Sequence record: MT446392.1
Length of the DNA stretch: 64,000 bases
Strand: one strand, 5' to 3'
Source of the DNA: Escherichia virus TH15
Shown here piece after piece: positions 1,108-21,614 of the stretch; within the stretch, counting starts at the first letter, position 1; the number at the start of each line of letters is the position of its first letter. Made by a program: the position numbers and the translations under genes. The notes under the pieces were generated by a model, which had not been told where the DNA came from, ran no database searches, and worked only from the letters and a program-made list of their open reading frames with translations.

Positions 1108-1172
1108 TGAAAATTCAAATTGCCGGTATTTTATTTCTGGTCGTAATGGTCGGACTTAACTTCCTACTATGA
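1107..1172 (+). CDS. putative 21-aa hydrophobic micropeptide (MKIQIAGILFLVVMVGLNFLL)
   Basis: ATG overlaps the stop of the 904 ORF and its TGA overlaps the ATG of the 1169 ORF; single predicted TM helix; below the ORF-track cutoff. Confidence 0.3.
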   Translation: MKIQIAGILFLVVMVGLNFLL

Positions 1173-1468
1173 AAGCCTGTCGGGTTGTTAACAAATATCA
1201 ATCCGACTTTGATGTGAATATTCAACGGGGTACCATGTGGGGAAACCCATATAAAGATGGTACCCGAGAAGAAAACATAAAGAACTTTAAAGAATATTTC
1301 ATATCAAAGATTAAATCGGGTGAAATCAAAAGAGAACACCTTGAAACCCTACGCGGAATGCGATTGGCCTGTACATGCAAACCAAAAGCATGCCATGGCG
1401 ATGTTATCGCCCTGGTCGTTAACAAACTTTTCAAAGATACCTTTTCGCTCGAGGATTTGGGAGCATAA
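1169..1468 (+). CDS. DUF4326-like protein
   Basis: 99-aa ORF with GNPY...ACTCKPKACHGDVI motif typical of DUF4326. Confidence 0.55.
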   Translation: MKACRVVNKYQSDFDVNIQRGTMWGNPYKDGTREENIKNFKEYFISKIKSGEIKREHLETLRGMRLACTCKPKACHGDVIALVVNKLFKDTFSLEDLGA

Positions 1469-1806: not shown

Positions 1807-4062
1807 ATGCAAGTACAAAAAAGTAGTGGTGTCTCTCAAGATTTTGATGGCCAGAAAATTATTAAAGTTCTTTCCTGGTCATGTGAAGGAACTAATATCG
1901 ACCCGTATGAATTATACGAAACAATCAAACCACATCTGCGCGATGGTATGACTACCCGCGATATTCAGACGGTTATCATCAAAGTGTCTGCTGGGCTTAT
2001 TTCGGTCGAAGAACCGGATTATCAATATGTTGCAGCGAAGGCTACGATGTTTGCTCTGCGTAAAGATGTTTATGGGCAATTCGAGCCACGTTCTTTTATT
2101 GACCAGATTTCTTATTGTGTTAATGAAGGCAAATATGACCCGGAACTGTTGTCAAGCTACTCCGCCGAAGAGATTACTTATCTGGAATCTCGTATCAAGC
2201 ACGAACGCGATTTTGACCTGACTTATGCAGGCGCGATGCAGTTGAAAGAGAAATACCTGGTTAAAGATAAAACCACTGGTAAAATCTACGAGACTCCACA
2301 ATTCGCTATCATGGCTATCGGCATGGCACTGTACCAGGATGAACCAACGGACCGTCTGAAGCACATTTGCCGTTTTTATGATGCAGTATCCACAAGACAG
2401 GTTTCGTTGCCCACACCTATCATGGCGGGCGCCAGAACACCCACCAGGCAGTTCAGTTCCTGCGTGGTTATCGAAGCTGCAGACTCCCTGAAGTCAATCA
2501 ATAAGACTGCCAATTCAATCATCGAATATATCAGTAAGCGTGCGGGTATCGGCATCAACGTTGGTATGATTCGTGCTGAAGGTTCGAAAATCGGTATGGG
2601 TGAAGTTCGTCATACTGGTGTTATTCCGTTCTGGAAACATTTCCAAACGGCTGTTAAATCCTGTTCACAAGGTGGAATCCGTGGCGGCGCTGCTACTGCT
2701 TATTATCCTTTATGGCATTTGGAAGTTGAAAATTTACTCGTTCTGAAGAACAACAAGGGCGTTGAAGAAAACCGCATCAGACATATGGACTATGGTGTCC
2801 AGTTGAATAACATGATGATGGAACGTCTGGCTAAGAATGATTACATCACTCTGTTTAGTCCACATGAAGCTGGTGGTGAATTGTATTATTCATATTTTGA
2901 TAACCCGGATAAATTCCGCGAGTTATATGAAGCCTTAGAAAAAGACCCGACAGTTCGTAAGAAACGTATCAAAGCAAAAGACCTGTTCGAATTATTCATG
3001 ACCGAACGTTCCGGCACTGCCCGAGTTTATCCACAGTTCGTTGATAACGTGAATGACTATACTCCGTTCATCCGCGATAAGGCTCCGATTCGTCAATCAA
3101 ACCTTTGTTGTGAAATTGCAATCCCGACTACTGATGTAAACAGCGAAGATGCTGAAATCGGATTGTGCACATTGTCTGCATTTGTTCTGGATAGTTTTGA
3201 CTGGCAGGACCAAGATAAGATTAACGAGCTGGCTGAAGTTCAAGTTCGTGCTCTTGATAATCTGTTGGACTACCAAGGTTATCCGGTTAAAGAAGCTCTG
3301 AAAGCCAAAAAACGTCGCAACTTGGGCGTTGGTGTTACCAACTACGCTGCATGGCTGGCAAGCAATTTCGCTTCCTACGCCGATGCAAACGATTTAACCC
3401 ATGAATTATTTGAGAGATTACAATATGGCCTTATCCGAGCATCCATCAAGCTCGCCAAAGAAAAAGGACCTTGCGAATATTATTCAGACACTCGTTGGGC
3501 TCGAGGCGAATTACCTATCGACTGGTACAATAAAAAGATTGACCAAATCGCAGCTCCAAACTACGTTTGTGACTGGGCGCAGCTGCGGGAAGACCTGGTT
3601 GCACATGGCATCCGTAATAGCACCTTATCTGCGCTCATGCCTTGCGAGTCGAGCAGCCAAGTTTCAAATAGTACCAACGGTATCGAACCTCCGCGTGGTC
3701 CAGTAAGTATTAAGGAAAGTAAAGAAGGTTCCTTTAACCAGGTTGTTCCAAATATCGAGCATAATAAAGGATTGTACGATTACGCATGGGTACTGGCTAA
3801 ACAAGGTAATAAACCTTATCTGACTCAAGTCGCGATTATGTTGAAATGGATTTGTCAGTCAGCATCAGCAAACACTTATTATGACCCGCAGAATTATCCG
3901 AAAGGAAAAGTTCCGATGTCAGTTATGCTTGACGACTTGATGTACGGTTGGTATTATGGAATCAAGAATTTTTACTATCACAATACTCGTGATGGCTCGG
4001 GAACTGACGATTACGAATTGGAAATGCCAAAAGCTGATGATTGCTCGGCATGTAAACTGTAA
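1807..4062 (+). CDS. nrdA: ribonucleotide reductase large subunit
   Basis: 751-aa ORF (T4 NrdA is about 754 aa); RBS GAGGAAAA; position after td. Confidence 0.93.
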   Translation: MQVQKSSGVSQDFDGQKIIKVLSWSCEGTNIDPYELYETIKPHLRDGMTTRDIQTVIIKVSAGLISVEEPDYQYVAAKATMFALRKDVYGQFEPRSFIDQISYCVNEGKYDPELLSSYSAEEITYLESRIKHERDFDLTYAGAMQLKEKYLVKDKTTGKIYETPQFAIMAIGMALYQDEPTDRLKHICRFYDAVSTRQVSLPTPIMAGARTPTRQFSSCVVIEAADSLKSINKTANSIIEYISKRAGIGINVGMIRAEGSKIGMGEVRHTGVIPFWKHFQTAVKSCSQGGIRGGAATAYYPLWHLEVENLLVLKNNKGVEENRIRHMDYGVQLNNMMMERLAKNDYITLFSPHEAGGELYYSYFDNPDKFRELYEALEKDPTVRKKRIKAKDLFELFMTERSGTARVYPQFVDNVNDYTPFIRDKAPIRQSNLCCEIAIPTTDVNSEDAEIGLCTLSAFVLDSFDWQDQDKINELAEVQVRALDNLLDYQGYPVKEALKAKKRRNLGVGVTNYAAWLASNFASYADANDLTHELFERLQYGLIRASIKLAKEKGPCEYYSDTRWARGELPIDWYNKKIDQIAAPNYVCDWAQLREDLVAHGIRNSTLSALMPCESSSQVSNSTNGIEPPRGPVSIKESKEGSFNQVVPNIEHNKGLYDYAWVLAKQGNKPYLTQVAIMLKWICQSASANTYYDPQNYPKGKVPMSVMLDDLMYGWYYGIKNFYYHNTRDGSGTDDYELEMPKADDCSACKL

Positions 4063-4790
4063 TGAATTATCAAAACATTTATAATAATTTAATATCCCGG
4101 GGTAAAACCCGGGAACCTTTAGCCGAATATAAAGAGATTCATCATATTATCCCAAGATGTATGGGTGGTACTGATGAAAAGACAAACCTTGTCGAGTTAA
4201 CAGCTCGAGAACATTTTATTGCTCATTTACTTTTATGCAAAATAAATCCCGGTCATTTTGGATTAGTCTCGGCCCTAACTTTAATGGCAACAGATAAAGC
4301 TGGAAATCGTATTAATAATAAATTGTATAGTTTCCATCGAAAGCTATTTGCCAAAGCAAATTCCGAATTCTTTAAGGAACACTGGAAAAATAACCCACAC
4401 CCCCGCGGTATGTTGGGTAAGCATCACAGTGAAGAATCTAAACAAATTGTAAGCGAAAAGAATAAGTTAGCTGTTCCATCTACAGAAATTTATCAATTTA
4501 CTCTCGATGGTGAATTTGTTGAAAAATTTAGGTCATTACAAGAGGCGGCGAGGACTGTAAATGGAAACGCGTCAAACATCAAGTATTGTGCAAGTGGAAA
4601 ATTTCAATATGCGTATGGATTTAGATGGTCATATTCGCTTCAACCCACATTTGATAAAATAACTCCACGACAATATAAAGGTGCCCGTGGTAAAATCTGT
4701 ATTAATGACGGGTTTACAAATAAATTAATTGAATCCTCTGAAATTATCCCCGATGGATGGGTCAGAGGAAGGATAAAGGTTAATAAATGA
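4062..4790 (+). CDS. mobE: freestanding HNH homing endonuclease, MobE-like
   Basis: 242-aa ORF with HHIIPRCMGG...N...H HNH motif; sits between nrdA and nrdB as mobE does in T4; start and stop overlap neighbours (ATGA). Confidence 0.75.
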   Translation: MNYQNIYNNLISRGKTREPLAEYKEIHHIIPRCMGGTDEKTNLVELTAREHFIAHLLLCKINPGHFGLVSALTLMATDKAGNRINNKLYSFHRKLFAKANSEFFKEHWKNNPHPRGMLGKHHSEESKQIVSEKNKLAVPSTEIYQFTLDGEFVEKFRSLQEAARTVNGNASNIKYCASGKFQYAYGFRWSYSLQPTFDKITPRQYKGARGKICINDGFTNKLIESSEIIPDGWVRGRIKVNK

Positions 4791-5967: not shown

Positions 5968-5988
5968 AAAGGGCTTCGGCCCTTTTTG
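5968..5988 (+). terminator. rho-independent terminator (GGGCUUCGGCCC + U-run)
   Basis: GC stem with UUCG tetraloop followed by TTTTT directly after the nrdB stop. Confidence 0.7.
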
Positions 5989-5991
5989 TCT

Positions 5992-6402
5992 ATGAAACAA
6001 ATCGCTGACGAATACAGTTTTATAAAATATGCGGAGTTAGAGTTAGTCGATGGTAAAATCCCTATCCTTACTCTCGCAAACAAGAAAAATGTTATCTACG
6101 CTATTTCAGTTGACGACGAACTAGTGTATATTGGTAAGACGAACAACCTGAAGAAGCGAATCAATTATTACCGGACTGCAATCAATCGTATAGAACAAAC
6201 GAGTGATTCAAACAAATCCCGGATGATACATGAAGCTTTACAAGAAGGCAAAAAGGTGGTATTCTATGCACGACAATGTTTCAATCTGTCAATGACCAAT
6301 GAACTTGGTACGATGTCAGTCGAAACGATGTCTCTGGAAGAGCCGATGTTCATCAAGCTTTTTAATCCCCCGTGGAATTACCAACATAAGGTGAAGAAAT
6401 GA
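5992..6402 (+). CDS. denA: endonuclease II (GIY-YIG family)
   Basis: 136 aa from ATG at 5992 (track start 5986 is TTG inside the terminator); VIYAISVDDELVYIGKT GIY-YIG motif; T4 EndoII is 136 aa. Confidence 0.85.
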   Translation: MKQIADEYSFIKYAELELVDGKIPILTLANKKNVIYAISVDDELVYIGKTNNLKKRINYYRTAINRIEQTSDSNKSRMIHEALQEGKKVVFYARQCFNLSMTNELGTMSVETMSLEEPMFIKLFNPPWNYQHKVKK

Positions 6403-10364: not shown

Positions 10365-10365
<1 letters not shown>

Positions 10366-10565
10366 TGAACAATATCGAAAAGATTTTTCGCAAGATTGAA
10401 GAAATTGAAAAAGGTTATGAATACTTTTTCAGCGTATGGCCGCTAACTGATGGACGTATCGGTCTGGATGTGATGGACTATCAAGATGAAGACAAGGTTG
10501 ATGGCGGTATCTTTACCTCCGCCACGGCCCTCCTGGACTTCCTGGAAGAGCATTATGTACGATAA
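10365..10565 (+). CDS. hypothetical protein, 66 aa
   Basis: ORF with ATG overlapping pseT stop. Confidence 0.45.
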
Positions 10566-16198: not shown

Positions 16199-16411
16199 AT
16201 GTTTAAGAAACTGATTCAGAAAATTTTGGGAACAGAAATGGTTGAAGTGACTTATCGCGTGACTGACGTAAGTCCATGGGCCCGAAATACTGAACCATAT
16301 ACTAAAACAATTAAAATGCTGAAATCTGACGGCGGATTATCTATTAAAGACCGTCTACCTGGTTATGGTCATTGGGCTGATGTAGATATTATCAGTGTCA
16401 AAGATGTCTGA
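16199..16411 (+). CDS. hypothetical protein, 70 aa
   Basis: ORF. Confidence 0.45.
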   Translation: MFKKLIQKILGTEMVEVTYRVTDVSPWARNTEPYTKTIKMLKSDGGLSIKDRLPGYGHWADVDIISVKDV

Positions 16412-16862
16412 GTTAGAAATCAGAAGTAATTTTCCGTGGCCATCATGTGCATTAAGCAACTTTGCTAAATGGCCTTTTGTTATGGAGGGTATCCAGTTTG
16501 GAGGTCTTGAAGGCTTCTTACAAGGGTGCAAGGTGAGAAATCATGAACAACAAAAACGTATATTTGGGATGTCCGGATTGGCCGCCCAGCAAAGTGGAAG
16601 AGCTTATGCAAGAGCTGCGGACCGTGGGACGCTTTTCTGGCTTGGAATTCCCTTTTCAAGATACTCTGCAGCATGGAAAGAGTTGTATACAAATGCATAT
16701 TTTGAAGCAGCGCTCCAGAACCAAGGATTCCGCGATGCGTTACAATCCACAAAAGGCAAAGTTTTAAAGCATTCGATGGCGAGTCACCTTACTGTTCATG
16801 ATACAATATTGACTGAACAAGAATTTATTGACATACTTAACCAATTGAGAGATGCATTATGA
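16395..16862 (+). CDS. NADAR (YbiA/DUF1768)-family protein
   Basis: 155-aa ORF with LSNF...PF..EG..F...E.FLQ..K pattern typical of NADAR/YbiA domains. Confidence 0.6.
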   Translation: MSKMSELEIRSNFPWPSCALSNFAKWPFVMEGIQFGGLEGFLQGCKVRNHEQQKRIFGMSGLAAQQSGRAYARAADRGTLFWLGIPFSRYSAAWKELYTNAYFEAALQNQGFRDALQSTKGKVLKHSMASHLTVHDTILTEQEFIDILNQLRDAL

Positions 16863-17683
16863 AACCCGTTATTTTAACAGATATTGATGGCGTATGTTTG
16901 TCATGGCAGTCTGGCTTGCCTTATTTCGCTCAAAAATATAATTTACCCCTGGAACACATCCTTAAGATGATTCAGGATGAAAAATTTGTGACCCCTGGTA
17001 AACTCTTCAATTGTGATGAAGAGTTGGGCGCGCAGTTGATTGAAAAATATAACTGTTCGGACTTTATTCGCTATTTGTCTCCTTATGCGGATGCATTAAG
17101 GGTTATTAATAACATCAAAGAGCAATATGATTTTGTGGCTGTAACAGCCCTGGGTGATTCTATTGATGCTCGCCTGAATCGTCAATTCAACCTGAATGCT
17201 TTGTTCCCTGGGGCATTTAAAGAAGTGATGATGTGTGGTCATACAGCCTCTAAAGAGGAGTTATTTCAGAAGGCAAAAGACAAATATAATGTCATTTGTT
17301 ATATTGATGACCTTGCGCACCATTGCGACCATGCGAGTGAAATTCTTGAGGTTCCGGTTTATTGGATGGCCCGCGGTGAACGTGATGCTATTCCTAAAAC
17401 AGCTTCCAAAGTTTTTAATTGGGACGATGTTGCCGGACAGCTTAAACTGAAACACAAAGATGAACCGGTCAAACCAGAATTCACCCCAGATGAACTCCGT
17501 AAACTGGAAGAGCTGTTTCGTGAAACTCGCCGTCTTCAACAACAAATGCAACAAGGCTGGCAGCCAGGTCAACAATGGACTCCTGGATATAATCCAGCAT
17601 ATCCATATCAATATGGTCAGCGCGTAGGTACTGGCATTGAATACTGGTACAATCAACCAACTGGTGGACAAGGGGGTAATTGA
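16859..17683 (+). CDS. HAD-like hydrolase / nucleotidase-like protein with Q/P/G/Y-rich C-terminal tail
   Basis: 274-aa ORF; N-terminal ILTDIDGV (HAD motif I); C-terminus QQQMQQGWQPGQQWTPGYNPAYPYQYGQ low complexity. Confidence 0.55.
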   Translation: MKPVILTDIDGVCLSWQSGLPYFAQKYNLPLEHILKMIQDEKFVTPGKLFNCDEELGAQLIEKYNCSDFIRYLSPYADALRVINNIKEQYDFVAVTALGDSIDARLNRQFNLNALFPGAFKEVMMCGHTASKEELFQKAKDKYNVICYIDDLAHHCDHASEILEVPVYWMARGERDAIPKTASKVFNWDDVAGQLKLKHKDEPVKPEFTPDELRKLEELFRETRRLQQQMQQGWQPGQQWTPGYNPAYPYQYGQRVGTGIEYWYNQPTGGQGGN

Positions 17684-17961
17684 TGTTTGTCGTTCATACT
17701 ATTTCAGACCGTGGTCCTGTCACCACAATGGATTACGGTCATGTTAACCAGTTTATTCGTCATGTGAATCATAATTACTCGTTTGATATTAATCCGGCAA
17801 AAGATAATCCCGTTTGGCGTGAATGTGTTGAGCAAGGATTTATCTATGTTCACTTCATGACTAAAATGAAACCAGATGGTGCCACGAAATTTGTGTTCAC
17901 TTATCATAAGCGTCTGGATTTGCTTTTGGAAGACGTGGCATATAATAGAGCCAACGACTAA
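17680..17961 (+). CDS. hypothetical protein, 93 aa
   Basis: ORF, ATGA overlap with upstream gene. Confidence 0.5.
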   Translation: MMFVVHTISDRGPVTTMDYGHVNQFIRHVNHNYSFDINPAKDNPVWRECVEQGFIYVHFMTKMKPDGATKFVFTYHKRLDLLLEDVAYNRAND

Positions 17962-17971
17962 GAGGTGATTA

Positions 17972-19504
17972 ATGATTTTAGATATTTTAAATGAAATTGC
18001 TGCAACCGATTCTACGAAAGAGAAACAAGCTATCCTGGAATCGTATTCTGAAAATGAAACGCTTAAACGTGTGTATCGTTTGACATATTCCAAAGGTATT
18101 CAGTTTTATATCAAGAAATGGCCAAAACCTGGGACAACGACTCAAAGCTTTGGCATGTTGAATATAAGTGATATGCTTGACTTTATCGAATTCACATTAG
18201 CACCTCGTAAATTAACAGGTAATGCTGCAATCGAGGAATTATCGGGTTATATTGCTGATGGTAAAAAAGCAGATGTTGAAGTCCTGCGCCGTGTGATGAT
18301 GCGTGACCTGGAATGTGGTGCATCCGTATCGATTGCGAATAAAGTTTGGAAAGGCTTAATTCCTGAACAACCGCAGATGCTCGCTTCTTCCTATGATGAA
18401 GCTGGTATTGCCAAGAACATTAAGTTCCCGGCCTTTGCGCAATTGAAAGCCGACGGCGCTCGGTGCTTTGCAGAAGTTCGTGGCGATGAGTTGGATGATG
18501 TTCGATTGTTATCCCGAGCCGGTAACGAATACCTCAAGCTTGACCTTCTTAAAAAGGAATTGATTGAAGCCACCCGTGAAGCGCGTGAGAGACATCCTGA
18601 GGGCGTTTTGATTGATGGCGAGTTAGTATATCATGAACAGAAAACAGTTGCCCAGGATGATGGTTTGGCCTTTCTTTTTGACGATACAGAGCAAGCCGAG
18701 ACTCAAATTGAATCTGCGGAATCTCGTACTAAGTCAAACGGTCTAGCGAACAAATCATTAAAAGGAACTATCACTGCGGTTGAAGCAGCTGGCATGAAAT
18801 TCCAGGTCTGGGATTATGTTCCGTTGATTGAAGTGTATTCAGATGTTAAAATTCTTAACCCTCTGAAATATGATGTGCGGTTCGCGGTATTAGAGAAGAT
18901 GATTGCAGATAACGTGGTGCTTCATGGCTACGACCGTATGATTCTGATTGAAAACCACGTGGTTAATAACCTCGAAGAAGCCAAAGCCATCTATAAGAAA
19001 TATATTGCTTTAAAGCTCGAAGGTATTATTCTTAAAAACACTGCAGCTCCTTGGGAAAACAAGCGCTCTAAGAATATGTACAAGTTCAAAGAAGTTATTG
19101 ACATCGCTTTGGAAATTATCGGATTCTATGAGCACGAGAAAGACCCAAATAAAATTGGTGGTGTTGTGCTTCAATCTTCTTGCGGTAAAATTGTTACCAA
19201 TTGTGGGTCAGGCTTCAAAGATACAACACAAGTCAAAGACCCGAAGACTAAGAAATGGACTATTATCCCAATTGATGAGCGTCATGAAATGGACCGCGAA
19301 GCTCTTATGATTAAGGCTTGCAAAGGTGAATTAGTTGGAATGATTGCTGATTGTGAATGTAATGGTTGGTTAACTTCTGAAACTCGTAAAGATAATACTG
19401 TTAAACTGTTTCTTCCGATTATCAAAGGGTTCAGATTCGATAAAGATAAGGCAGATACTTTCGAAGAAGTATTTGGCGACTGGTCACAGACGGGGTTAAA
19501 ATAA
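17972..19504 (+). CDS. 30: ATP-dependent DNA ligase
   Basis: 510-aa ORF; MILDILNEIA...KADGAR (KxDG adenylation motif); closely resembles T4 gp30 (487 aa) as recalled. Confidence 0.93.
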   Translation: MILDILNEIAATDSTKEKQAILESYSENETLKRVYRLTYSKGIQFYIKKWPKPGTTTQSFGMLNISDMLDFIEFTLAPRKLTGNAAIEELSGYIADGKKADVEVLRRVMMRDLECGASVSIANKVWKGLIPEQPQMLASSYDEAGIAKNIKFPAFAQLKADGARCFAEVRGDELDDVRLLSRAGNEYLKLDLLKKELIEATREARERHPEGVLIDGELVYHEQKTVAQDDGLAFLFDDTEQAETQIESAESRTKSNGLANKSLKGTITAVEAAGMKFQVWDYVPLIEVYSDVKILNPLKYDVRFAVLEKMIADNVVLHGYDRMILIENHVVNNLEEAKAIYKKYIALKLEGIILKNTAAPWENKRSKNMYKFKEVIDIALEIIGFYEHEKDPNKIGGVVLQSSCGKIVTNCGSGFKDTTQVKDPKTKKWTIIPIDERHEMDREALMIKACKGELVGMIADCECNGWLTSETRKDNTVKLFLPIIKGFRFDKDKADTFEEVFGDWSQTGLK

Positions 19505-19562: not shown

Positions 19563-21614
19563 ATGTCTGAACAATTAAATGAACTCTTTGACAAATATAT
19601 CGAAACCTTCGGTTATCCTGTCATTAATATGAATCCAAAATACAAGGTCCCACAGGTTTGGCAATTCGGTGTTCCTGGGACCAATTCTCTTATGGCCCGT
19701 TTGATGCAATTCACGGGCAAAGAAACAGTTAAACAATATAAACGTGGTGATGCAATTGCCGAGGTATTCCTGCTCTCCGGGACTTCACACGGTCATGCTG
19801 TTCCTCTGAAGGGTGGCCTAGGTGAAAAACCTCTTGATGCGATTAACCTGATTTTTACCACAGTCTGGGAAAGTATCAAACTAGGCAAACCTGATGTAGT
19901 CTTGTTCCGTTTCCCCTCCAAAAAGATGAAAGGTCAAGAGCAAGCTGTTATTCGTATTATGAATCGACTGATTCAAATGAAAACTTCCGGGCGTTATCAT
20001 GTTCTTCCGAATGCATCTGGTCTCGGTAAAAAGAACGCTTATGTAATTATGTACAAAAAGGGTGTTGACCTACTGTCGGTTGATGGTATGCCTCCAGTCC
20101 CTGAGAAATATCAAAAAGTCACAACAAAAGTTGGCGACGTATTCACCAATAAAGATAACGGTGCACAAGTCTCCAAACAAGAAATCGCAGCCGAAGTTCT
20201 GATTGATGCCGCAAACAAAAAGACCGATGCTTCTGTTGCACAGAAAACTAAAATCAGTCGCCGAGCTATTGCACAAGCCCAGTATGCACCAAATGAGAAT
20301 GTCCCAGAAGGTTGGGATGAAATTGATGCAGAAGCTGCTAAATTTAGTCGACCTGCGACTGCTGAATTAATTGATGATGCCGAAGAACTGGAAATTTTTG
20401 TTCGACCTTCTGAAACGAATACTATGGCACGTATGCGCGCAGCAGATATGGCTATGCGAGCAAATGGTGTTTGGAAAGAAGAAATTCGTGTTGAAGACAC
20501 TGACCCAATTTTTAACCGTATGCACCGTGAACTTAAACGTGCTCCAGTCGGCAGTATGAAGCAGATGCAGATTTTTGCCGAATCATGTGCAGAAATTCTT
20601 AACCTTCGTAAAGCTGCATTTATCGAAAGAAAAATGAATGATGCTCCCCCTAACCTGGATGCAGCCACTTATGCAGCCACGCTCTGGGAAGAAGAATACA
20701 CAAGCGCCATTCGTGTTGCAGTTAAAGACTTTGCCGAAGAAGCATCAGAAAATACTCTTAATTTCACAGCAGGGTATACTGACAACCGTTTCCATTATGG
20801 CCAGCGAGAAGCAATTGCAGATTATTGTGGAGCAAACTATGTCGATATTAATAATTATTTGATGGGTAATTATTATGAAGAAGATGCTGAATTCCTAAAT
20901 CTGGACAGAGTTGTCGAAACAATTAAGGAATTGGATTCGGCCTTTGAAATTGGACATAAGTTGCCACCCGATACAACTCTTTGGCGTGGTCAATATTTAA
21001 ATGTTCCTACATTTAATAAAATTAAGCAATCGAAATTATTTTATTTCAGGAACTATGTATCAACGTCGTTTAAACCGATTATCTTTGGTGGCTGGGTGGC
21101 GAACGTTGCTATGGCCGCAGTTCATCAGGACTATCGTGATGGGACATCTTTCCAGGCTGATGACGAAATTGTTTTACCAAATATTCCGGGTGCAAACCCA
21201 GATAACGCAATGATTCATGTTGGTTGGAAAATTTCTGGGGCGGACTTAATTAACGTAATTGTTCCCGGCGAATTGTCAGGAAACCCGACCGAGCAAGAAG
21301 TTATTCTTCCTCGTGGAACTATAGTTAAGATTACAAAGATTACGGATGCGTCGTATCAAGGAAATGCGAACGTCAAAATGCTGGAAGCGGATATCCAGAC
21401 CACTGACCAACTGGATGAAAATGCAGTTATCTATGATGGTGATGTGTTGATGGAAACTGGCGAGCTTGTCGTTTATAAAGGCGAGGAACCAGAAGAATCT
21501 GTTGACTTCGCATCGTTTGCATCCTCCAGGGTGACGAAGAAAGTCAACCAAGGCCTTGGTATTCTTGCTAGTTGTATTAATTTGGAAAGTATTCCTCCTA
21601 AATTCCTTTCATAG
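19563..21614 (+). CDS. alt: ADP-ribosyltransferase Alt (virion-packaged)
   Basis: 683-aa ORF (T4 Alt 682 aa); position next to gene 30; N-terminal sequence resembles T4 Alt as recalled. Confidence 0.85.
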   Translation: MSEQLNELFDKYIETFGYPVINMNPKYKVPQVWQFGVPGTNSLMARLMQFTGKETVKQYKRGDAIAEVFLLSGTSHGHAVPLKGGLGEKPLDAINLIFTTVWESIKLGKPDVVLFRFPSKKMKGQEQAVIRIMNRLIQMKTSGRYHVLPNASGLGKKNAYVIMYKKGVDLLSVDGMPPVPEKYQKVTTKVGDVFTNKDNGAQVSKQEIAAEVLIDAANKKTDASVAQKTKISRRAIAQAQYAPNENVPEGWDEIDAEAAKFSRPATAELIDDAEELEIFVRPSETNTMARMRAADMAMRANGVWKEEIRVEDTDPIFNRMHRELKRAPVGSMKQMQIFAESCAEILNLRKAAFIERKMNDAPPNLDAATYAATLWEEEYTSAIRVAVKDFAEEASENTLNFTAGYTDNRFHYGQREAIADYCGANYVDINNYLMGNYYEEDAEFLNLDRVVETIKELDSAFEIGHKLPPDTTLWRGQYLNVPTFNKIKQSKLFYFRNYVSTSFKPIIFGGWVANVAMAAVHQDYRDGTSFQADDEIVLPNIPGANPDNAMIHVGWKISGADLINVIVPGELSGNPTEQEVILPRGTIVKITKITDASYQGNANVKMLEADIQTTDQLDENAVIYDGDVLMETGELVVYKGEEPEESVDFASFASSRVTKKVNQGLGILASCINLESIPPKFLS

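What the first reader, a model, noticed from the sequence alone, without database searches (positions are those of the whole stretch)
16859..17683. HAD-like enzyme carrying an aromatic Q/P/G-rich low-complexity tail
The N-terminus has the HAD motif-I-like ILTDIDGV. The last ~50 residues are QQQMQQGWQPGQQWTPGYNPAYPYQYGQRVGTGIEYWYNQPTGGQGGN. A Gln/Tyr/Pro/Gly-rich tail like this is unusual on a small phage enzyme. It could mediate self-association or targeting.
Basis: seen in the sequence. Interest (0 to 1): 0.4.

Follow-up and report, generated by a model that had tools for sequence, protein, structure and literature searches.

The report
T4 gp30.2 phosphatase with docking tail
This is the ortholog of phage T4's uncharacterised gene 30.2: a phosphatase-type enzyme whose odd C-terminal tail is real, conserved in T4 and many relatives, and looks like a flexible tether ending in a short conserved docking motif rather than a prion-like or artefactual sequence.

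Summary
It is the ortholog of T4 gp30.2 (phrog_420, E 2e-78; 97% identical to VR7 gp30.2, 66% to T4), in the conserved order 30.3(AdfN)-30.2-30.1-30(ligase).

The extension has three parts: a confidently predicted helix (210-232), a disordered aromatic/Pro-rich segment (233-254), and a conserved island, GTG-I-E-Y-[LW]-x-x-Q-P-T (255-268).

The tail is not a frameshift artefact. T4 has a homologous tail, variants differ only by in-frame indels, and dN/dS is 0.08-0.3 against 0.03-0.07 for the core. Q/G-richness is confined to the VR7-like lineage, so a prion-like reading is weak.

My best reading is a tethered short linear motif that docks a partner, which remains unidentified. gp30.1 is the leading candidate: it is translationally coupled, co-gained, and co-lost in one lineage. 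The gp45 clamp is a lead only, because the motif resemblance is not statistically significant. This is a modestly interesting, real feature of a known but unstudied gene family.

The parts
16859..17683 (+). Gene 30.2 ortholog, 274 aa including the stop codon
   Evidence: ORF. phrog_420 E 2.3e-78. 97% identical to annotated VR7 gp30.2 and 66% to T4.
16859..17446 (+). HAD phosphatase core with C1 cap (residues 1-196)
16871..16894 (+). HAD motif I, ILTDIDGV (Asp8 nucleophile, Asp10)
   Evidence: D8 and D10 are invariant in A1 and A2.
16898..17122 (+). Helical cap insert (residues 14-88) between motifs I and II
   Evidence: AF2 helices 16-26, 32-40, 46-49, 54-65 and 77-86. W16 aligns with the Phe of cdN's DGVLADF segment.
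17132..17155 (+). HAD motif II, FVAVTALG (Thr96)
   Evidence: T96 is invariant in 11 sequences and at least 90% conserved in 72.
17249..17257 (+). HAD motif III lysine (Lys132)
   Evidence: K132 is invariant.
17297..17314 (+). HAD motif IV, CYIDDL (Asp150, Asp151)
   Evidence: D150 and D151 are invariant.
17447..17485 (+). Linker between core and helix (residues 197-209)
   Evidence: pLDDT drops to about 67-78. Length and sequence vary between clades.
17486..17554 (+). Amphipathic helix (residues 210-232) that starts the extension
   Evidence: AF2 helix 210-232; the 10-residue blocks covering 211-230 average pLDDT 94 and 92. An equivalent helical stretch precedes the tail in every tail-bearing clade.
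17555..17620 (+). Disordered aromatic/Pro/Gly/Gln-rich tether (residues 233-254) with anchors W234 and WTPGYNP
   Evidence: pLDDT 45-67 and 27-46. W234 is at least 90% conserved. The WRTPGFNP / WTPGYNP segment is shared with T4. Only in-frame indels occur within clades.
17621..17662 (+). Conserved terminal motif RVGTGIEYWYNQPT (residues 255-268)
   Evidence: E261 is invariant, and Y262, P267 and T268 are at least 90% conserved, in 19 motif-bearing sequences whose cores are only about 50% identical. The motif's paraphyletic distribution implies it is ancestral.
16404..16862 (+). Upstream neighbour 30.3 = AdfN (NADAR); its stop overlaps the 30.2 start
   Evidence: PF08010 E 3.8e-63. Function from bioRxiv 10.1101/2024.07.11.602962.
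17683..17961 (+). Downstream neighbour 30.1 (DUF3045); its ATG overlaps the 30.2 TGA stop
   Evidence: PF11243 E 4.5e-18. Sequence TGATG at 17681-17685. Co-occurs with the tail.
17972..19504 (+). Gene 30, ATP-dependent DNA ligase (context)
   Evidence: ORF. Annotated as ligase in the syntenic T4 and VR7 loci.

Best explanation
The ORF is the ortholog of T4 gp30.2.

Shown:
- Residues 1-196 form a capped HAD-superfamily domain with the full Asp-nucleophile catalytic set: D8, D10, T96, K132, D150, D151.
- The C-terminal extension is a real, selected part of the protein. It consists of a helix (210-232), an apparently disordered aromatic/Pro-rich tether (233-254), and a conserved island, G-T-G-I-E-Y-[LW]-x-x-Q-P-T (255-268).

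Inferred:
- The domain is a Mg-dependent phosphomonoesterase. The substrate is probably a nucleotide or another small phosphate ester.
- The tail acts as a flexible tether whose terminal short linear motif docks onto another protein. This would place the phosphatase in a complex of the phage DNA/nucleotide-metabolism machinery.
- The partner is not identified. The most likely candidate is gp30.1, the product of the translationally coupled downstream gene. The gp45 sliding clamp is a weaker candidate.
For: Orthology and synteny.

Catalytic domain:
- The catalytic motifs are conserved in 72 homologs: D8, D10, K132, D150 and D151 invariant, T96 at least 90%.
- AF2 core pLDDT is above 90.

Tail:
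- Its pLDDT is 45-67 and 27-46 in two AF2 runs, and the motif is not docked in cis.
- The T4 and window tails share anchor residues along their whole length.
- Motif conservation: E261 is invariant and Y262/P267/T268 are at least 90% conserved across clades with about 50% core identity.
- dN/dS of the tail is 0.076 (VR7 group), 0.245 (T4 group) and 0.23 (G3 clade), against 0.03-0.05 for the core in those groups.
- Indels are in-frame only.

gp30.1 as partner:
- The 30.2 stop and the 30.1 start overlap.
- A 30.1 gene follows every homologous long-tail gene examined.
- On the core tree, tail and 30.1 appear together. Both are missing in the nested Gelderlandvirus lineage.

The architecture parallels gp55, which has a divergent, unstructured linker plus a conserved terminal clamp-binding epitope (PMC2988020).
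Against: - No partner has been shown.
- AF2 disorder is a prediction, and shallow tail alignments limit it.
- The tail/30.1 co-occurrence is largely one phylogenetic event. That gives two concordant events (gain, and loss in Gelderlandvirus) against at least one discordant one: JS98-like phages kept 30.1 but lost the tail.
- A Tequatrovirus subgroup has the terminal motif degraded by point changes and a 3-nt deletion. Several clades carry different terminal sequences such as DLRAYYG, RITCDN and ALRASF. The specific motif is therefore dispensable or replaceable.
- The single 30.2-30.1 fusion (P0021) may be a homopolymer sequencing error.
Confidence: 0.55

Rival explanations
1. The tail is a prion-like, low-complexity domain that drives self-association, aggregation or condensate formation.
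For: - The last 48 residues are 81% Q/N/P/G/W/Y/F with only two charged residues.
- The region is predicted to be disordered.
- Its overall composition resembles the Q/G/P-rich linker of E. coli SSB.
Against: - Q/G enrichment is confined to the VR7-like lineage. T4 and the other clades have 3 or fewer Q in the last 45 residues.
- Conservation is positional (W234, WTPGYNP, GTGIEY..QPT), not merely compositional.
- The biased stretch is only 42-48 residues with 24-31% Q+N.
- The similarity to SSB is composition only: 95% of shuffled tails score at least as well.
Confidence: 0.1
2. The tail acts within the enzyme itself. Either it is an exchanged arm that wraps a neighbouring subunit in a homo-oligomer, or it is a lid that folds over the active site to regulate it.
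For: - The helix 210-232 is predicted with high confidence, so it probably packs on the core.
- From my own knowledge, related cdN/mdN nucleotidases are dimers.
- Conserved aromatic anchors spaced along an extended chain are typical of arm-exchange segments.
Against: - Two AF2 runs give no confident cis placement of residues 233-274.
- The tail has been lost outright in lineages whose core is otherwise well conserved: JS98-like, Gelderlandvirus and all non-Tevenvirinae relatives. The core therefore does not need it for folding or catalysis.
Confidence: 0.2
3. The terminal motif is a sliding-clamp (gp45) binding epitope that recruits the phosphatase to DNA, like the termini of gp43, gp55, gp33 and RNase H.
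For: - In VR7 the known epitopes read gp55 ...DLDFLYGTSI*, gp33 ...TLDFLL* and Rnh MNLDFLL....
- gp30.2 has GIEYWY in the window and GIEYLY in T4. This is a conservative match at each position, it lies near the terminus, and it follows a variable linker as in gp55.
- The pattern [LIM][DE][FY][LWM][LYF] hits only those three epitopes plus gp30.2 in 94 kb of VR7-type sequence.
Against: - I widened the pattern after the fact so that it would include gp30.2.
- Shuffles give 1.37 matches in total and 0.31 near a terminus. The probability of at least one near-terminus match is 0.28.
- Other clades' tails end in DLRAYYG or RITCDN, which lack the acidic-aromatic core.
- There is no binding evidence.
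Confidence: 0.1
4. The tail is a frameshift, read-through or annotation artefact with no function.
For: Only the unusual composition.
Against: - A homologous tail is present in T4, VR7 and many other clades.
- 867 phage records align over at least 80% of the query.
- dN/dS is well below 1.
- Indels are in-frame only.
Confidence: 0.01

Closest known systems
Bacteriophage T4 gp30.2 (old ORF name y12F; phrog_420)
   Same: Orthologous. HMM E 2e-78 and 66% identity over residues 1-270. Same position between 30.3 and 30.1/ligase. A homologous tail with shared anchors: W..WxTPG[FY]NP..PYQ..GIEY[LW]YN[QR]PT.
   Different: The window protein belongs to the VR7-like (Gaprivervirus) lineage. Its tail is Q/G-rich and ends in GGQGGN, whereas T4's is N/T/H-rich and ends in CGDNIFQGAF. 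My searches found no paper that names gp30.2; the one paper that mentions gene 30.2 does so only in a figure legend.
Cytosolic and mitochondrial 5'(3')-deoxyribonucleotidases (cdN/mdN, Pfam NT5C) and phage '5'-nucleotidases'
   Same: Capped HAD fold. Best Foldseek PDB hits (2jao E 2.5e-8, 2i7d, 1q92). The DxDGV..[FW]xSGL segment aligns. BFVD neighbours are annotated as nucleotidases.
T4 gp55 / gp33 / gp43 C-terminal sliding-clamp-binding epitopes
   Same: Same architecture: a divergent, variable-length, apparently unstructured linker ending in a short conserved hydrophobic and acidic motif near the C-terminus. LDFLY and IEYLY differ only by conservative changes.
   Different: The similarity is not statistically supported. 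The motif is followed by a conserved QPT that the clamp epitopes lack. Other gp30.2 clades carry unrelated endings.
E. coli SSB disordered linker plus C-terminal tip
   Same: A globular domain, then a Q/G/P-rich disordered linker, then a conserved terminal interaction motif. The overall composition is similar in the VR7-like lineage.
   Different: There is no sequence-specific similarity, since shuffled tails score as well or better. The compositional likeness is absent in T4 and the other clades.

Membership tests
HAD superfamily phosphatase | Motif I, DxDx[TV], with the nucleophile Asp and Asp+2 | tested here: met
   T-D8-I-D10-G-V. D8 and D10 are invariant in 11 and in 72 homologs.
HAD superfamily phosphatase | Motif II Ser/Thr, motif III Lys, motif IV acidic pair (DD) | tested here: met
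   K132, D150 and D151 are invariant; T96 is invariant in 11 sequences and at least 90% conserved in 72.
HAD superfamily phosphatase | Rossmannoid core fold with a cap insert | tested here: met
HAD superfamily phosphatase | Mg-dependent phosphoryl-transfer activity | not testable with these tools
   Needs an enzyme assay with a D8N control.
5'(3')-deoxyribonucleotidase family (Pfam NT5C, PF06941) | A match to the family profile | tested here: not met
   No Pfam hit other than a spurious one at E up to 1. No NCBIfam hit.
5'(3')-deoxyribonucleotidase family (Pfam NT5C, PF06941) | Closest structural neighbours are cdN/mdN | tested here: inconclusive
5'(3')-deoxyribonucleotidase family (Pfam NT5C, PF06941) | dNMP substrate specificity | not testable with these tools
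   Needs a substrate panel.
T4 gp30.2 family (phrog_420) | Profile match and conserved position upstream of 30.1 and DNA ligase | tested here: met
   E 2.3e-78 over residues 1-268. Synteny with T4 and VR7.
Prion-like / Q/N-rich low-complexity domain | A long Q/N-rich core (PLAAC's default is about 60 residues, from my own knowledge) whose composition is conserved in orthologs | tested here: not met
   The biased stretch is 42-48 residues with 24-31% Q+N. Q-richness is absent outside the VR7-like lineage. PLAAC itself was not run.
Disordered tether with a short linear motif | Predicted disorder, variable length and sequence, and a short island of strong conservation under purifying selection | tested here: met
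   pLDDT 27-67. In-frame indels. E261 invariant and Y262/P267/T268 at least 90% conserved. dN/dS 0.08-0.3.
Disordered tether with a short linear motif | A demonstrated binding partner | not testable with these tools
   Multimer prediction and pull-downs were not available here.
gp45 clamp-binding epitope | A hydrophobic and acidic LDFL-type motif at a protein terminus, behind a variable linker | tested here: inconclusive
   IEYWY / IEYLY resembles LDFLY. The match is within chance expectation.

The most novel reading that the evidence does not exclude
The conserved terminal motif is a recruitment epitope for a replisome or repair hub: the gp45 clamp, or a gp30.1-containing complex. Under this reading gp30.2 is a DNA-associated phosphatase. 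It would work with its translationally coupled neighbours AdfN (DNA de-ADP-ribosylation) and DNA ligase as a damage-reversal or anti-defence module. That could also help explain why AdfN works only in the context of T-even infection.
Probability: 0.08. Interest if true: 0.7.

Novelty: new member of a known kind. Interest (0 to 1): 0.35.

Why it matters
T4 is the best-studied phage, yet gene 30.2 has no assigned function, and my literature searches found no paper that names gp30.2. It lies between a recently characterised anti-DarTG1 enzyme (AdfN, gp30.3) and DNA ligase, and it is translationally coupled to both of its immediate neighbours, 30.3 and 30.1.

The tail turns out to be a selected tether with a defined conserved motif. 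That gives experimenters a concrete handle: peptide pull-downs, point mutants E261A/Y262A and tail deletions. These could identify what this phosphatase is attached to, and so what it does.

The practical gain is modest unless the partner proves to be a replication or anti-defence component.

Tried and rejected
1. A profile of the tail alone, searched against 5.8 billion proteins, returned one hit. P0115 is a 96-aa protein ending ...EIGTGIEYLDNQP..., E 1.9. Its 989-bp contig has no match in the phage collection and no T4-like neighbours. I treat it as a chance match.

2. SSB-linker mimicry was rejected as specific similarity: 95% of shuffled tails align to SSB at least as well.

3. A second AF2 run used a motif-only alignment of 19 sequences, to look for cis docking. 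It gave a worse model (mean pLDDT 68.5) and still left the tail disordered.

4. The clamp-motif pattern scan is specific but post hoc and not significant.

5. Rosetta-stone evidence is weak.
   - P0021 fuses the 30.2 core to DUF3045, but the unfused relative has an A6 run at the junction, so this may be a sequencing error.
   - The phiR1-RT-type 312-aa proteins carry a different C-terminal domain that is not DUF3045.
   - Longer multi-domain relatives from the representative search (P0120, P0171, P0172, P0186) gave no informative Pfam domains.

6. Literature searches for gp30.2 found nothing. One search was a badly framed search that returned only generic T4 papers.

7. No tandem repeat was found in the tail DNA.

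Full report
**Observation.** The window has an ATG-initiated ORF at 16859-17683 on the + strand, encoding 274 residues. That stretch is 81% Q/N/P/G/W/Y/F. All 48-residue windows of plus-strand ORFs in the 64-kb window average 28% (sd 7%), and the next most biased ORF reaches 50%. No tandem DNA repeat underlies it.

**Identity.**
- The protein matches phrog_420 (unknown function) at E 2.3e-78.
- By tblastn it is 99.6% identical to Escherichia virus TH57, 97% to the annotated gp30.2 of phage VR7 (Gaprivervirus), and about 66% to T4 over residues 1-270. In all, 1438 phage records match, and 867 of them cover at least 80% of the query.
- Gene order matches T4 and VR7: 30.7-30.6-30.5-30.4-30.3-30.2-30.1-30.
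- In the window, 30.3 is at 16404-16862 (PF08010, E 3.8e-63), 30.1 at 17683-17961 (DUF3045, E 4.5e-18) and the ligase at 17972-19504.
- The 30.3 stop overlaps the 30.2 start (ATGA), and the 30.2 stop overlaps the 30.1 start (TGATG). This suggests translational coupling.

**Catalytic domain.**
- D8, D10, K132, D150 and D151 are invariant across 72 homologs and T96 is at least 90% conserved (invariant in the 11-sequence set). These are HAD motifs I-IV.
- AF2 with that alignment gives mean pLDDT 87. Residues 1-196 are above 90 and show the expected alternating strand/helix core with a helical insert at 14-88.
- Foldseek against the PDB ranks mouse and human 5'(3')-deoxyribonucleotidases first (2jao E 2.5e-8, TM 0.65). 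Other capped HAD enzymes follow.
- BFVD neighbours include phage proteins annotated as 5'-nucleotidase, and PNK phosphatase domains.
- Sequence-level support for the NT5C family is absent or marginal. There is no Pfam or NCBIfam hit, and the profile against PDB sequences gives E 0.17-0.86.
- I therefore file it as a HAD phosphatase with a C1-type cap. Nucleotidase activity is plausible but untested.
- The wider family is small: 378 clusters at E up to 1e-3 among 1.84 billion representatives. Nearly all are 190-225 aa, that is, without a tail.

**The tail.** AF2 divides the extension into four parts:
- a lower-confidence linker (197-209);
- a confident helix (210-232; blocks 211-230 average pLDDT 94 and 92);
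- a low-confidence region (233-274, pLDDT 45-67);
- within that last region, the conserved terminal motif (255-268).

A second run with only motif-bearing homologs gave a poorer model and again left 233-274 unplaced. So there is no evidence that the tail docks on its own core.

Comparison with orthologs shows that the tail is neither recent nor random.
- T4 has a homologous tail with shared anchors along its length (W..W-x-TPG-[FY]-NP..PYQ..G-I-E-Y-[LW]-Y-N-[QR]-P-T).
- Across 19 sequences from several clades with only about 50% core identity, E261 is invariant and W234, Y262, P267 and T268 are at least 90% conserved. The consensus is GxGTGIEYLxxQPT.
- On a neighbour-joining tree of the core domain, this motif occurs in paraphyletic lineages (T4/VR7, KP15-like, and a third clade). 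It is therefore probably ancestral for the tail-bearing clade.
- Other clades keep the same layout (helix, aromatic/Pro-rich segment, terminal motif) but with different endings: DLRAYYG, DWWNNxRITC, ALRASF, DYVLLNKV.
- Within clades, the tails differ by in-frame indels only.

Pooled Nei-Gojobori dN/dS values show the tail is under purifying selection, though weaker than on the core:

| Clade | Tail end | Core |
|---|---|---|
| VR7 group | 0.076 | 0.028 |
| T4 group | 0.245 | 0.028 |
| G3 clade (L034-L036) | 0.23 | 0.05 |
| Kanagawavirus-like | 0.31 | 0.07 |

**Caveats on the motif.**
- A Tequatrovirus subgroup has the motif degraded by substitutions and a 3-nt deletion (GIEYLYNRPT to DAGYFNRLT).
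- The whole tail has been lost in JS98-like phages and in Gelderlandvirus.
- The tail is absent from all more distant relatives: Slopekvirus, and the Acinetobacter, Aeromonas and Vibrio phages.
- The tail is therefore an accessory, not needed for the core fold.

**Prion-like reading.** Q and G enrichment is specific to the VR7-like lineage, with 8-9 Q in the last 45 residues against 3 or fewer in every other clade. Aromatic and Pro content is general. The biased stretch is 42-48 residues with 24-31% Q+N and two charged residues. The resemblance to the Q/G/P-rich linker of E. coli SSB is purely compositional, because 95% of shuffled tails align to SSB at least as well. Conservation is positional, which fits a binding motif better than a composition-driven assembly domain.

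**Possible partners.**

*(a) gp30.1.*
- For: the genes overlap. In 88 loci, every gene with a homologous long tail is followed by a 30.1 gene, and nearly all tail-less genes lack it.
- For: on the tree, tail and 30.1 appear together at the base of one clade. Both are missing in the nested Gelderlandvirus lineage.
- Against: JS98-like phages keep 30.1 without the tail.
- Against: the one fusion protein (P0021, DUF3045 E 8e-15) may be a homopolymer error.
- Overall this is two concordant events against at least one discordant one. It is suggestive only.

*(b) The gp45 clamp.*
- For: VR7 gp55 ends ...DLDFLYGTSI, gp33 ends ...TLDFLL, and RNase H begins MNLDFLL. The gp30.2 motif IEYWY (IEYLY in T4) is a conservative variant near the terminus.
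- For: gp55 likewise has a divergent, unstructured linker before its epitope (PMC2988020).
- For: a degenerate pattern hits only these four sites in 94 kb.
- Against: I widened the pattern after seeing gp30.2. Shuffles give 0.31 near-terminus matches, with P(at least one) = 0.28. It remains a lead.

*(c) Other proteins carrying the same motif.* A tail-only profile search found only a chance-level hit in an unrelated small protein.

**Context.**
- gp30.3 is AdfN, a NADAR DNA ADP-ribosylglycohydrolase that counters the DarTG1 defence system (bioRxiv 10.1101/2024.07.11.602962; PMC11125620).
- The window copy is full length and keeps E36 and K43.
- AdfN reportedly works during T-even infection but not in uninfected cells or for T5 or Bas25. 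The authors attribute this to hydroxymethylated DNA.
- A requirement for co-expressed phage proteins such as gp30.2 or gp30.1 is an untested alternative. I raise it only as the most novel reading the evidence does not exclude.
- No paper in the searchable library names gp30.2. Gene 30.2 appears only in a figure legend of the DarTG1 preprint.

**Verdict.**
- The gene is a known but uncharacterised T4-family member. The tether-plus-motif organisation of its tail is a useful and modestly novel description.
- Interest 0.35.

Noticed in passing
window 16404-16862 (+): The gene 30.3 ortholog is AdfN, the NADAR DNA ADP-ribosylglycohydrolase that neutralises DarTG1. It is full length and keeps E36 and K43, the residues shown to be catalytic in T4 AdfN. 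Its stop overlaps the 30.2 start. This phage is therefore predicted to resist DarTG1.
   Followed up: partly
window 10365-10565 (+): A 66-aa ORF lies directly after the polynucleotide kinase gene, at the pseT.1 position, and has no Pfam hit. It ends ...ALLDFLEEHYVR. This contains the LDFL core of the gp33, gp55 and RNase H clamp-binding epitopes, six residues from the C-terminus. It is a possible unrecognised clamp ligand.
   Followed up: no
window 17681-17685 and 17683-17961 (+): The 30.2 stop (TGA) overlaps the ATG of 30.1 (DUF3045, function unknown). 30.1 is co-inherited with the gp30.2 tail across Tevenvirinae-like phages, and both are absent in Gelderlandvirus.
   Followed up: partly
P0021 (302 aa) and locus L029 3570-3720: A metagenomic protein fuses the gp30.2 core in frame to DUF3045, with no tail between them. 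The nearest unfused relative has an A6 run exactly at the junction. The fusion may be real or may be a homopolymer sequencing error.
   Followed up: partly
loci L018 and L019, last ~135 nt of the 30.2 gene: A subgroup of T4-like (Tequatrovirus) phages has the conserved terminal motif degraded (GIEYLYNRPT to DAGYFNRLT) by point substitutions and a 3-nt deletion. The extreme C-terminus GDNIFQGAF is unchanged.
   Followed up: yes
window 4062-4790 (+) and 5986-6402 (+): An HNH + NUMOD1 homing-endonuclease-like ORF lies between nrdA and nrdB, and a GIY-YIG ORF lies just after nrdB. These are mobile-element insertions typical of T4-like nucleotide-metabolism clusters.
   Followed up: partly
locus L010 (Vibrio phage PVA8) 1483-2079: The tail-less gp30.2 homolog ends ...KLLDFLHEKV, an exact LDFL near the C-terminus. 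The stretch aligns with the last helix of the HAD core (the W188 region), so it is probably structural rather than a clamp epitope.
   Followed up: no
loci L044 and L081; proteins P0063 and P0064: phiR1-RT/TG1-type Yersinia phages have a 312-328 aa gp30.2. In place of the aromatic tail it carries a different, apparently folded C-terminal domain of about 110 residues. This domain has no Pfam match and is not DUF3045.
   Followed up: partly
window 19563-21614 (+) and 1169-1468 (+): An Alt-like ADP-ribosyltransferase (PF03496, E 3e-19) lies downstream of the ligase, as in T4. A DUF4326 ORF lies between td and nrdA.
   Followed up: no
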